Notes under the pieces: generated by a model | Told to the model about the DNA's origin: nothing | Databases searched by the model: none | What the model saw: the letters and a program-made list of their open reading frames with translations, nothing else | Made by a program: the position numbers and the translations under genes | Part shown: positions 24,556 to 61,735 of the stretch, in pieces | Layout: the number at the start of each line of letters is the position of its first letter | Position numbering within the stretch: position 1 is the first letter of the stretch | Assembly (NCBI GenBank): GCA_951406725.2 | Contig: OX597815.1 | Location: forward strand, 53,940,001 to 54,004,000 | From: Octopus vulgaris | Taxonomy: Eukaryota | Length of the DNA: 64,000 nt | Direction of reading: 5' to 3'

Positions 24556-24616
24556 GATAAAACTCCGAGTTTCGAATGTCGGGGCGGAAGCCCACACCAG
24601 CATCTCTTCAGTTATC
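24556..24616 (-). ncRNA. Type I hammerhead ribozyme fold
   Basis: Minus strand: stem I GAUAA/UUAUC; core CUGAAGA; imperfect stem II with inner GGGC-UUCC-GCCC; GAAA; stem III ACUC-G-GAGU; GUU cleavage triplet. Confidence 0.7.
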
Positions 24617-27600
24617 GAGCCATCGAAAAAGATAATATGAAAATGACCGTTAAAACAAAGGGAAATTACTGTGTAAATGACCGTTATTAAGACAAAAGAG
24701 CTTTTAGAATGATCGCAAAGTAAGGGGAGGGAGTAAAGTTAAGGGAGTAAAAATGTTCATAATAATCGCGTAAGCGCGCATGTCCATACATACACATGCG
24801 CGCCCGCACAACCACGTACATGCGCCTATATGTAAATACTCATCCACCCTCACTTGAAACACACACATGATCACCCATACATTCGCCAAAAACTATATAC
24901 ATACCCGCATACACGCTCGCACACACACACAGACACGCGCACAGAAAAGATTCATACACACGTCTATATACGCACAGGCACAAGAGAAAACAGTGTTATA
25001 CGCAAAATACAGAAAAATGTGTAAAAGAAGTGTAAAAAAACAAGCAATAAGAGTAAAACACGTCGATCGATATACGCACATATTCGCATGCATGCACACA
25101 CACGTCTATATACGCATTTACCCGCACACACGTACTCATCCACACGCGCACAATATATATATATATATATATATGTGTGTGTGTGTGTGTGTGTGTAAAT
25201 ATATATATATATATATATATAGAGAGAGAGAGAGAGAGAGAGATAAATAGATAGATAACATCTCGTTTTCTTCACTTGGTATCTCTGCTTATTGGTTGCC
25301 ATTTATCTCTTCTTTATTTGAATGTGTTTTTATGTGGTCCAGTCAATTTTTTGTTGACCAGATACAACTGTTAGTTTTATTCAATATTCCCGATATTAAT
25401 TATAACCTTTTTAACAGAGCCATCTCCAAATGAATAATAATCATAGCCATGTTGATATAATAACCCAAGCTTGTAACAGGCTTTAACATCAAATATGTTT
25501 GTCTTCTAATGGTATGCAATGTTGATTCCGGTTAGTCATCTGGATCGTCTCTCACAACCTTCCTTATCTGCTATCCTCGTGCATAATTCCATAACGAAAA
25601 CGATAACGTTGTATATTATTCTTTTAAATTCGAACATATTCATACTGCCAATGTTAATGTCAAGTTACTACTCACTAAATGTTAATATTTTATTAAAGGA
25701 TTCTTTACGGGTTTGTAATCTCATTTATCTGTCTATACGGAGAGTATACATGACAACGTGACAGACGTTTTTGTGCATATAAAAATTGAGAATATTTGTT
25801 GGTTTGAACAAAATAAATATAGACTCAATATATGAATAGTGTAAGAATTAGTAATCAAGTAACATTCAGAAACTAGTATTCATTCTCATACATCTAAGCT
25901 TTATATAGAATTTAAGGTTTGCATAACATAATGTAGGAAACATCTGAAGTTTCGAGATCGTATTGATCGCGAGTTAATTTGAGATTTTAGGAAGTGGTAA
26001 GGTGAGAGACTCGGTAAATACCATAAATATTTAGTTGCGTACTTTCAAGTTCTGAGATTAAACCTCAAAAGAAAGGACCTGGCATTTCCCCTCTCTGTTG
26101 TCATAATCATAAATATTAGTAATGATTATAGTCGGCCATAAACTACTATATCACCACGCTAAATTATGATAATTGAAGAAAACGTTTTAGATGCGCGAAT
26201 GAAACATTTTTCAGGCCTCAGTAAAGAAAGACTGAGTGAATATGTAATAACTTCTAAATCTGAGTTCAAATTTTGCAGATATGAACCTTATATTGCTTAA
26301 ACATCAAAAGAACCTTTTCAAGTAACTCCCGCTTATATTGAAAAAAAAAAACACACACACACACAAACACACAAAACTAGATAATCTCGTTCTAGAAACA
26401 TTGTTTGGAAAAGGAAGGAATCTTCGCGGTTGGAACGCCTTTCATCATACTTCAGCGGGGATAGATCCTGCTTTAACTGGGACTAAATAACAACAATGGT
26501 ATAAACCATATTCCTTGGAGAGAAATCAATATATGCTAACAAAACTTCTTCACTTCCATTTTGCCAGTCTTCGGATGACTAATGCAGAGAAAAAATATGT
26601 GGGCGACTCATAAATAAATTAACTCAACATTCACATGATTTAACCGTCATCATTATTACGCATTAAACACAACTATTTTTATTTCAAATATAACTGATAT
26701 TTTTAATTCAATTTCTCTGCAGCCATTTGGATCTTCTTCAAAAAATACAAAAGCCATCATATCACCTATCTTTATATATTGTTCTACTTAATAAACACAC
26801 ACACACACACACACATACATATAGACATATGTTCATATTATATAGATATGTACGTATGTATTCTTCTCACCACCACCTTCTGTTCAATACATTCTATTTA
26901 AACTTTTGAGCTGAAACAAACGGATTTAGAAAATGCAGCAGTTTCACTGCAACCACATATTAATGATAATATAAAAATAGCACCAATATAATATTACATG
27001 CATAAATAATAAACTGTGAACATTTATATTGTTTTATCGTGGAAATTGCAGATTATTAATTAATTACAGCTTCTCGGTTGATACTAATGTCAATTCTGAA
27101 ACCAGCACCTTATGTATCAAACCCACAAGATGTCAAAATGTAAAGTACAAATTAGGTCCCCCAACTTTTTAGGTTTTTAGGCGTTACTTAATACATCAGT
27201 GTCTCCCAAAGTAGAGATGATTGCGTGAATCTGATGCCATATTTGGACGTAACACGCCACTGGTTAGAGATTTCAACAGTAGCAACGTTTTTTTTAAACA
27301 CAAGACCAAAAAAGTAAAATACAAGCTTCCCATCTGAAAGATTCAGTTTAGAACAATATTACATATTGTTGAATAGGCTGACTACTATTATCTGCTCTTG
27401 TATACTAAGATGTATCGACTGCCGTATATCGGATTAACAGATTTAATAAGGAACTTTAAGCTGTGTATGTATATATGTATGTATTTACGTATGTGAACAT
27501 ACATACGTACGTGAACAGACGCACATAAATACATACACACACAGATACACACATACATACATACATACATACATACATACATACATACATACATACATAC

Positions 27601-28587
27601 ATACATATATATATATATATATATATATATATATATCTGCAATGTCAACAATAACCGCCACAAATAAAGAGGAAGGGAATAGTGAAAGTGTATAGGAAAA
27701 GATAATCAGGAGCGATTAAGAAGTAAAACAGAAAGATGATAATAGTCAATGGGAAAAGGTAAGAGAGAGGGAGAGAGGGAGGTGGAGAGAGATCCAGAGG
27801 TAGAGAGAGAGAGAGAAAGAGAGAGAGAAAGCGCGAGAGTGAGAGACAGACAGACAGAAAGAGAAAGTAGTGAACAACAGTAGAGGTGGTTTCTAATTGC
27901 ATAAGGAGTTATCTCAACACAGGAATGTGTACATCCATATATATATATATATATATATATATATATATATATATATATATATATATATATATAAATGTAT
28001 ATATACAGAACTATATATATATATATATATATATATATATATGTGTGTGTGTGTGCATACAAATACAAAACACACACACACACACATATGATTATATGAT
28101 TCCGAATCTAGTTGGTGTGAACAGGTGAAGATGCCAAGTCACTGTGTTCTTGACCTCCAACAATTCCAAAATAAACAATCTCTACATTGAATAACTGTGA
28201 AAACCACCTGTGCCATAGTTTACCGCAGGCTATTTTACTCATTTTAGTTTCTGAAATGGGGCTAAGCTGCGACTTATCGATCAGAGTACTACTTATCTAA
28301 GTCTGGTAGATATTGTTACTGTTTTTTGAACCGCTAATTTACGAGGCATAATCATAAATTTAGATATTAAGCATTGTAAGCGTGACAGCAGACATTCGAG
28401 TCAGTTAAATGCTGAGCACTTACATACATATACGAGTGTATTTCTCTCTCTCTCTCTTTCTCTCTCTCTCTCTCTCTTATATATAGGTATATATATATAT
28501 ATATATATATATATATATATATATATATATATATACATTGTGGGATAGCAGCGCCAAGCTGTGATGTGTATAAATAAAAGGACATTA

Positions 28588-28766
28588 CCAGTTGAAATAT
28601 GCTTGTGGCATATTCGAACACGTAAGAAAGCTATTCACTGTCTTGTCACGGAGAAAATTTCTGGTAGTAGACACCATCTGGCTACTGCGAGAAATTTTCC
28701 CCATGACAAAACACAGTCAATGGCTTTTTTACAGGTTCGAATATGCCGCAAACATACTTAAAATGG
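28588..28766. repeat. Imperfect fold-back (MITE-like), related to 24113-24322
   Basis: tgtggcatattcgaac...gagaaaatttct / agaaattttcc...gttcgaatatgccgca, centred near 28675. Confidence 0.75.
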
Positions 28767-28792
28767 CATCAACCACATATATATATAAAATT

Positions 28793-29008
28793 GCAGCGTG
28801 GTAGGTGTTTATATGCCATTTAAAAGCACACAAAACCGTTAGATTCACTTCAACATTTAAATTTAATTTGTAAAATTCCATGCTATATCTCGGAATTTTG
28901 TCGCAGTTTATTAACGACGAAAATATTTTGACAAATTAAATTTAAATGTTGAAGTGAATCTAACGGTATTTGTGTTTTTAAATGGCTTATAAACACCTTA
29001 CACGCTGC
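28793..29008. repeat. Inverted-repeat element (~85-bp arms) between TA tracts
   Basis: ccgttagattcacttcaacatttaaatttaatttgt vs acaaattaaatttaaatgttgaagtgaatctaacgg. Confidence 0.85.
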
Positions 29009-60730: not shown

Positions 60731-60821
60731 TTTTAGCTGATGAGTACGGGACACGTTTATATGCTGTAATTTTTGCAACTTTTAATAAAACCTGTCCTTG
60801 TATGAAACGATTGTACTAAAA
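60731..60821 (+). ncRNA. Type I hammerhead ribozyme
   Basis: Stem I UUUUAG/CUAAAA; CUGAUGA; long stem II GUAC-GGGACA...UGUCCU-U-GUAU; GAAA; stem III ACGAUUGU; GUA site. Confidence 0.82.
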
Positions 60822-61021
60822 ACCTATCCATTCTTGTTGCTTCATTCTCGCTTATAATCACCCCACATTACTGTATTGTTAAATCAGTATAGTTTTTTTT
60901 GGTGCATCTAAGTTAGGTACCATATTCAAGTAAATTCATTTAACTTAACTTGAATCTTTATTGCTTTATATATATATATATATATATATATATATATATA
61001 TATATATATATATATATATAT

Positions 61022-61512
61022 AATAATAGAAATATTAAAATTACTAAGTCTCTCTAAAGGAGATTACGGCAGCGTTACTGGATATTAATAGTTATCGCCA
61101 TACTAATATGGCAGTCTAGATATAAGATTAAAGCTGTCGCTGATTAGCTCCGAGAGGCCATCGCCTCTAGCTAGCTATATGACACACGAACCTGCGTCCA
61201 TTACAACCTTCGAACAGGGGAGGTCAGCCGCTTCACCTTGCTAGTCAGACATCTGCAGACATGTTTCAGGGTTGTTGCCTTTTATCAATGCAGCGTAGTC
61301 AAACCCGCAGGTGTCGCTACTGACTGTCTGTTCGAAGATTTTATTTACCTAGTTACAGTGGAATACATCCACTTGTTTTCAATAATAGAAATATTAAAAT
61401 TACTAAGTCTCTCTAAAGGAGATTACGGCAGCGATGGCCTCTTGGAGCTAATCAGCGACAGCTTTAGACTTATATTTAGACTGCCATATTAGTATGGCGA
61501 TAACTATTAATA
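61022..61512 (-). mobile_element. Short PLE pLTR-like element with direct and inverted internal repeats, between (TA)n tracts
   Basis: Direct repeat ~61022-61074 / 61381-61433; inverted repeat ~61083-61164 / 61431-61512; internal hammerhead. Confidence 0.8.
61253..61293 (-). ncRNA. Minimal type I hammerhead with U3-A8 core variant
   Basis: Minus strand CUGCA-UUGAUAA-AAGG CAACAA CCCU-GAAA-CAUG-UC-UGCAG; palindromic stem III ACAUGU; GUC site. Confidence 0.7.
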
Positions 61513-61697
61513 TAAATATATATATATATATATATATATATATATATATATATATATATATATAAATACATATGTATATATATATATATGTATGTATATA
61601 TGTATATATATATATATATATATATATATATATATATATATATATATATATATATATATATATACTTTATTTTAAGCAGCAGAAAATTCAACAAAAT

Positions 61698-61735
61698 CTG
61701 TTACTCTGAGTTTCTCGTTGCCGTTCATCAGACAG
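61698..61735 (-). ncRNA. Minimal type I hammerhead at the 3' end of the terminal PLE
   Basis: Minus strand CUGU-CUGAUGA-ACG GCAA CGA-GAAA-CUC A GAG-UA-ACAG; the stem II closing pair is an A.A mismatch. Confidence 0.72.

What the first reader, a model, noticed from the sequence alone, without database searches (positions are those of the whole stretch)
24556..61735. Sequence-unrelated hammerheads with one shared architecture, in short ORF-less TA-associated elements
Seen: hammerhead folds at 24556(-), 54497(+), 60082(-)/60731(+), 61253(-) and 61698(-), a degenerate one at 49375-49423(-), and 3' halves at 42529-42603 and ~28900-28927. Stems differ in sequence but still pair. Stem III is always palindromic or nearly so (ACCGGU, ACAUGU, ACAGCUGU, ACUCnGAGU, ACGAUUGU, AAUAUU). 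Most hosts are 200-900 bp, ORF-less, next to (TA)n and fold-back in structure. Known: minimal PLE hammerheads with palindromic stem III can work as dimers. Inference: a diverse population of retrozyme-like or solo-pLTR elements mobilised in trans by TA-targeting PLEs. They would usually be annotated as MITEs or unknown repeats.
Basis: partly seen in the sequence, partly recalled or inferred. Interest (0 to 1): 0.8.

Follow-up and report, generated by a model that had tools for sequence, protein, structure and literature searches.

The report
Hammerhead mini-elements with Penelope insertion footprints
Several unrelated short repeats in this stretch of animal (likely octopus) DNA each carry a fold predicted to be a self-cutting "hammerhead" RNA; most of this pattern is already known, but one very abundant 359-base non-coding unit shows the insertion pattern typical of Penelope-like jumping genes, which likely copy it around the genome.

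Summary
Observation confirmed. Stem III is palindromic at 5 of 6 independent loci versus 16 of 133 shuffle hits. All 8 cut sites lie 38-236 nt upstream of (TA)n. The ~28900 half is unsupported. Most of this is published for Penelope-like element (PLE) ends (Cervera 2014, Craig 2021). The addition is element D (61023-61516): a 359-nt ORF-less unit plus a 52-nt repeat of its own end. In public runs it is a many-copy family whose sequence closes on itself, ends at (TA)n at two sites 59 nt apart, and has copy-specific inversions. It folds at z -5. That is a retrozyme-like unit bearing PLE integration footprints; element A (429 nt) looks alike but is untested. No cleavage, RNA or helper element was shown. 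This scan noted a similar PLE-type pattern on other DNA (e1-7810660, e1-6787993). Verdict: new variant of a known kind, interest 0.45.

The parts
61023..61516 (-). Element D: on the minus strand inverted(Y) - X - Z - hammerhead - Y - 7 nt - X, between (TA)n tracts; one 359-nt unit plus 52 nt, plus an inverted truncated arm
61075..61433 (-). One full D unit, 359 nt, GC 0.42, longest open frame 35 codons; folds at z -5.0 with the hammerhead at the tip of a long arm
61253..61293 (-). Hammerhead D, U3:A8 core variant, stem III ACAUGU, predicted cut after GUC at 61258
61023..61074 (-). X, outer 3' end of D abutting (TA)n; with 61075-61081 it forms the 59-nt tail
61382..61433 (-). Second copy of X, 52 of 52 identical, 359 nt away, directly upstream of Z
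   Evidence: adjacency of Z and X in other copies
61431..61513 (+). Inverted 5'-truncated copy of Y (61082-61164), 95% identical, ending at the inner 3' site beside (TA)n
54207..54754 (+). Element A: inverted arm with 76-nt tail (54207-54377), then direct copy 54381-54752 that starts with the same 19 nt as the tail's end; implied unit 429 nt; (TA)n on both sides
   Evidence: fold z -4.8
54497..54568 (+). Hammerhead A, stem III ACCGGU, long stem II, predicted cut after GUA at 54562
60047..60966 (.). Element C: 402-nt inverted arms (2 mismatches, 6-nt loop) plus 110-nt tail on the right, (TA)n on both sides
60082..60172 (-). Hammerhead C (left arm), stem III ACGAUUGU, cut site 60088
60731..60821 (+). 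Hammerhead C (right arm), identical to the left, cut site 60815
61698..61735 (-). Hammerhead E, stem III ACUCAGAGU, weak 2-bp stem II, solo fragment 38 nt from (TA)n
24556..24616 (-). Hammerhead B, stem III ACUCGGAGU, GUU triplet, bulged stem II, solo fragment
42247..42834 (+). Element F: inverted arm with 171-nt tail, then direct arm starting inside stem II (3' half of a hammerhead at 42529-42608, stem III ACAGCUGU), (TA)n on both sides
49375..49423 (-). Degenerate hammerhead G (three core changes), same stem III as F, 85 nt from (TA)n; not significant alone
28793..29073 (+). Fold-back insertion with 65-nt tail; its claimed hammerhead 3' half (28900-28928) is unsupported
32098..32529 (+).
   Evidence: Pfam GIY-YIG E 0.0011, below cut-off; 19 relatives, one with RT
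33385..33541 (+). 3' end of that PLE with a minimal hammerhead-like motif (U at core position 6, stem III ACGU) ending at (TA)n; further copies 21131-21597(+), 40237-40399(-), 52599-52783(+)

Best explanation
These hammerhead folds with palindromic stem III sit 38-236 bases upstream of (TA)n in short, unrelated insertions that were likely made by Penelope-like element (PLE) proteins; the population is mixed, with at least one many-copy non-coding 359-nt unit (D) that likely moves in trans like a retrozyme, and others that are likely just truncated 3' ends of ordinary PLEs. Shown: the folds, their orientation to (TA)n, the inverted arm plus one-sided tail at A, C, D and F, and for D a unit that closes on itself with two TA-abutting 3' ends. 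Inferred steps: (1) a tandem or more-than-unit source is transcribed; (2) two hammerheads pair through their palindromic stem III and cut out unit-length RNA, which may be ligated into a circle; (3) a helper PLE protein nicks both strands of a (TA)n tract and starts two cDNAs at two internal sites of the RNA (the distance between them is the tail); (4) the two cDNAs stop at variable points and are joined head to head, giving a fold-back with a tail at one end; a cDNA that runs past one unit repeats the unit's end (52 nt in D, 19 nt in A).
For: Folds far above shuffles; palindromes enriched; stem III is unstable as a monomer hairpin (+2.1 to +6.0 kcal/mol) and stable as a two-molecule duplex (-4.6 to -11.1) for A-G. 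Inverted 5'-truncated arm, one-sided tail and (TA)n targeting are PLE hallmarks (Craig 2021); a PLE protein extends both strands from two internal start sites that define the tail and prefers AT-rich DNA (Frangieh 2024). D in 4 of 4 runs laid: 3928, 5221, 3985 and 281 contigs; share running on into unlike sequence 0, 0, 0 and 0.01; depth at the far 5' end of Z matches X in 3 of 4 runs (one third in X1); the only listed loose end at the Z|X boundary is (TA)n (11 contigs in X1, 1 in X8); (TA)n also follows the inner end (30 and 27 contigs); variant Z-to-X joints exist that differ from this copy (61381-61027, 61374-61048); four listed opposite-strand joints lie at four different places. None of the 40 listed variants falls in D's core or stems I and III; the stem II mismatch of this copy is repaired in 98-100% of depth. 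Listed variants stabilise the fold on average (-0.34 versus +0.65 kcal/mol, 0 of 5000 null draws). Staggered truncated PLE ends exist in the window.
Against: No helper PLE shares sequence with any listed host; the window's GIY-YIG remnant belongs to another family. No listed contig spans Z-X-T or two units, 733 loose ends, 35 joints and 17 variants were not shown, and short contigs can hide a rare long parent. Only D was laid; A, B, C, E, F, G rest on one copy each. Pair-breaking variants are no rarer than chance (13 of 39 versus 13.5). C's arm plus tail does not fold better than shuffles (z -0.76). Tails (59-171 nt) are longer than the published 30-40 bp. In vitro the anole PLE needs no hammerhead cleavage and uses unprocessed RNA, and 8 of 9 Xenopus retrozyme dimers did not cleave, so steps 2 and the circle are the weakest links. 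This copy of D has one hammerhead and could not excise a unit by itself.
Confidence: 0.65

Rival explanations
1. All hosts are 5'-truncated 3' ends (pseudo-LTRs) of many autonomous PLE families; the repeated X in D and A comes from a partial tandem made when the reverse transcriptase restarted on a second RNA.
For: This is the published reading of solo and opposite-strand minimal hammerheads and partial tandems are typical of PLEs. The window's 33385-33541 family behaves this way. B, E, F, G give no sign of a closed unit.
Against: For D the Z|X join recurs in other copies, no upstream non-X sequence is among the best-supported loose ends, and 0-1% of laid contigs run on into unlike sequence. 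D and A fold as whole structured RNAs (z -5.0, -4.8).
Confidence: 0.2
2. Every listed host is a non-autonomous closed unit copied from a ligated circular RNA, and copies stop just after one turn because the enzyme meets its own RNA:cDNA hybrid.
For: Overshoots of 52 (D), 19 (A) and possibly 5 nt (C) just past one unit; cDNA crosses the predicted cut site; mussel retrozyme circles are 350-390 nt and highly paired.
Against: C's 5-nt match is weak and C does not fold specially; F, W and two other fold-backs show no such repeat near their centres beyond 4-8 nt; a tandem source transcript explains the overshoot without any circle; no RNA evidence.
Confidence: 0.1
3. The fold-back hosts are MITEs (non-autonomous DNA transposons into TA) that picked up hammerhead-like sequence.
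For: Short, non-coding, fold-back, TA-flanked.
Against: Arms are asymmetric with a one-sided tail; inversion points differ between D copies; 3 of 7 hosts have no arm; orientation of the ribozyme towards the nearer (TA)n in 8 of 8.
Confidence: 0.03
4. The folds are chance matches in AT-rich repetitive DNA.
For: Rfam gathering scores are not reached; G and the ~28900 half are indistinguishable from chance.
Against: 0 of 100 shuffles reach the observed count in any of 12 tests; D's core and stems are conserved across the family.
Confidence: 0.02

Closest known systems
Minimal and atypical type I hammerheads in PLE pseudo-LTRs (Cervera and de la Pena 2014, PMC4209133; parts 1-2 of 4 and one supplement searched)
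   Same: Type I topology, palindromic stem III, long variable stem II, U3-A8 variant, high heterogeneity within one genome, solo motifs and opposite-strand pairs 100-700 bp apart; molluscan examples (Lottia, Crassostrea) listed.
   Different: Stem III here has 2-5 extra palindromic bases; A, C and D lack the G10.1-C11.1 pair and the extra base before stem II; D is not a truncated end but a unit that closes on itself.
Metazoan non-LTR retrozymes (Cervera and de la Pena 2020, PMC7229834, abstract and sections 13, 14, 17; Li, Clavereau and Pollet 2026, bioRxiv 10.64898/2026.07.22.740005, parts 1-3 of 5)
   Same: Non-coding unit of 150-450 nt, GC under 50%, one type I hammerhead per unit, highly paired fold; PLEs proposed as helpers; solo monomers described.
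   Different: Defined as tandem arrays with at least two ribozymes; D here is 1.14 units. In the parts read, the PLE link rests on co-occurrence and pLTR homology; inverted arms, tails and (TA)n targeting of retrozymes are not described there. RNA circles are shown there, not here.
PLE insertion structure; Hydra and Naiad (TA)n targeting; non-autonomous Chlamys elements such as MRC1 (Craig et al. 2021, PMC8557442; passages and section 11)
   Same: Inverted 5'-truncated copy, one-sided tail, (TA)n targets, non-autonomous derivatives that form pLTRs and head-to-tail copies.
   Different: Hosts encode no RT or endonuclease; tails are 59-171 nt rather than 30-40; most Chlamys lack hammerheads; no shared 3' end with an autonomous family was found.
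Anolis Poseidon element PAc in vitro (Frangieh et al. 2024, PMC11167929; parts 1-2 of 4)
   Same: Two internal start sites giving a tail, extension of both strands, AT-rich cleavage: matches the two TA-abutting ends of D.
   Different: PAc starts inside its own ORF and its hammerhead overlaps the start codon; no such reading frame follows the hammerheads here.

Membership tests
Type I hammerhead ribozyme | Core CUGANGA (or U3:A8 covariant), GAAA and NUH | tested here: met
   A, B, C (2), D, E; U3:A8 is a natural active covariant (PMC3088659 passage). Not met for G; half only for F; absent for ~28900.
Type I hammerhead ribozyme | Three helices around the core, open at stem I | tested here: met
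   E has only 2 bp in stem II and B a bulge
Type I hammerhead ribozyme | Self-cleavage at the NUH site | not testable with these tools
   Only contigs were available
Type I hammerhead ribozyme | Rfam hammerhead model at gathering score | tested here: not met
   HH9 20.8 bits versus 52 on A; none on D. A model-coverage limit, not a defining property.
PLE-type minimal/atypical hammerhead (Cervera 2014) | Palindromic 15.2-16.2 and loop 3 | tested here: met
   5 of 6 loci versus 16 of 133 shuffle hits
PLE-type minimal/atypical hammerhead (Cervera 2014) | G10.1-C11.1 pair and extra base between 9 and 10.1 | tested here: inconclusive
   Both present in the 33385-family; G-C in B; A-U in A and D, G-U in C
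PLE-type minimal/atypical hammerhead (Cervera 2014) | Lies in the pLTR of an ORF-bearing PLE | tested here: inconclusive
   True for the unlisted 33385-family; tblastn of 19 PLE-type proteins hits only 32098-32559, not any listed host
Metazoan non-LTR retrozyme | Non-coding unit of about 150-450 nt, GC below 50% | tested here: met
   D 359 nt, GC 0.42, 35 codons; A 429 nt implied, GC 0.36
Metazoan non-LTR retrozyme | One type I hammerhead per unit, conserved in the family | tested here: met
   D: no listed variant in core or stems I and III, 40 of 57 rows shown
Metazoan non-LTR retrozyme | Tandem array with two or more ribozyme-bearing units | tested here: not met
   Window copies are 1.14 (D) and about 1 (A) unit; arrays elsewhere in the genome could not be seen in short contigs. 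Hence 'retrozyme-like', not filed as a member.
Metazoan non-LTR retrozyme | Highly self-paired unit | tested here: met
   D z -5.0 linear and circular, A z -4.8; C not (z -0.76)
Metazoan non-LTR retrozyme | Expressed as linear and circular unit-length RNA | not testable with these tools
   No run on record as RNA was listed
Metazoan non-LTR retrozyme | Loop 1-loop 2 tertiary contacts of canonical motifs | not tested
   Not examined; the mussel retrozymes also lack most of them
Autonomous EN+ Penelope-like element | ORF with RT and GIY-YIG | tested here: not met
   No host has an open frame above 79 codons on the ribozyme strand or a tblastn hit
Autonomous EN+ Penelope-like element | Insertion signature: inverted 5'-truncated copy, one-sided tail, microsatellite target | tested here: met
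   A, C, D, F; family-wide for D; B, E, G show only the target
MITE | Fixed terminal inverted repeats at both ends of all copies | tested here: not met
   One-sided tails; inversion joints vary among D copies

The most novel reading that the evidence does not exclude
This genome holds several unrelated, very abundant retrozyme-type RNA circles (359, about 430 and perhaps about 510 nt) that are the direct templates of PLE proteins: each genomic copy records a PLE dimer starting at two sites on the circle, reading through the re-ligated hammerhead site and stalling just past one turn. The DNA copies would be the first physical footprint tying animal retrozymes to PLE machinery and would give a minimal, testable PLE cargo.
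Probability: 0.3. Interest if true: 0.7.

Novelty: new variant of a known kind. Interest (0 to 1): 0.45.

Why it matters
Which enzyme moves animal retrozymes is open: PLEs are the proposed helpers on grounds of co-occurrence and pLTR similarity, and the 2026 preprint says the mechanism remains to be worked out. A retrozyme-sized unit that carries the PLE-specific inverted arm, tail and (TA)n target is direct structural evidence for that link, and D names the predicted start sites (59 nt apart) for an in vitro test. It also warns that many fold-back TA-flanked repeats in such genomes are PLE products, not MITEs. The ribozyme architecture itself is ordinary.

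Tried and rejected
No whole genome is held, so no genome-wide count, family clustering or helper search was possible. Rfam scan of the window is swamped by microsatellite matches to miRNA models. Two metagenome pattern scans (C and D motifs) found 0 loci. No RNA holder listed among 24 runs; the run guessed to be RNA (X8) may hold DNA, so it is not used as evidence on expression. 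Summed contig depth is not a copy number. A suspected RT remnant at 57053-57511(-) was not confirmed (no Pfam hit; no match to P0013); the likeness was from recall. No solved-structure relative of the GIY-YIG remnant. Idea that a PLE start codon lies inside the core as in PAc: rejected, frames close within a few dozen codons. Pair-break count test on D variants was null (39 of 40 listed rows used, 61468 dropped as it lies in the duplicated arm). The terminal-repeat test gave only 0-8 nt matches for C, F and three other fold-backs. Whole-motif dimer MFE folds mostly give alternative pairings and were not used. Literature: searches found no paper on octopus hammerhead elements; one search listed 40 of 55 retrozyme papers, none on cephalopods by title; one search was uninformative. 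Lunse et al. 2017 (PMC5785218) is not held; the supplements of Cervera 2020 and of the Li 2026 preprint, one supplement of Cervera 2014, and Repbase could not be seen and may already contain such families. Earlier-findings look-ups by sequence and place found nothing.

Full report
Setting. The window is AT-rich, microsatellite-rich animal DNA with 67 (TA)6+ tracts. A GIY-YIG remnant at 32098-32529 is 74% identical over 62% of the query to a protein labelled Octopus bimaculoides, so the host is likely an octopus (inference). No whole genome is held.

Noticed in passing
21131-21597(+), 33385-33541(+), 40237-40399(-), 52599-52783(+): Four-copy PLE 3'-end family with a minimal hammerhead-like motif that has U at core position 6 in all four copies, each ending at (TA)n; activity of this variant unknown (Perreault passages mention only A6C, with low activity).
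   Followed up: partly
41365-41511(+) and 43213-43359(+): Two-copy, 86% identical family ending at (TA)n with CUGAGGA, then GAAU instead of GAAA, then GUC; no adjacent stem I, but a longer-range pairing is possible. A near-hammerhead of unclear status.
   Followed up: partly
24114-24354, 28536-28778, 28793-29073, 29104-29169, 49894-49978: Further TA-flanked fold-back insertions, some with one-sided tails, without a recognisable hammerhead; likely the same PLE-type structure truncated downstream of the ribozyme.
   Followed up: partly
   Followed up: no
29962-31207: Mariner-type transposase remnant (Pfam Transposase_1 at 30685-31128) between 47-nt inverted repeats.
   Followed up: no
15700-16185(-): Reverse transcriptase fragment (Pfam RVT_1, E 2.5e-07), probably a LINE piece.
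   Followed up: no
13416-13789, 40512-40960, 50847-51234, 59545-59914: Four copies of a dispersed repeat of about 400 nt, often split by a microsatellite; SINE-like, not examined.
   Followed up: no
57053-57511(-) and 57409-57513 / 57985-58089: Short stretch that resembles a PLE RT start by recall, not confirmed, beside a 105-nt direct repeat.
   Followed up: partly
54497-54503 and 60731-60737: Stem I 5' strands of A and C end in AG just before the core, like a 3' splice site; in D. virilis Penelope an intron ends at helix I. May be only the canonical stem I sequence.
   Followed up: no
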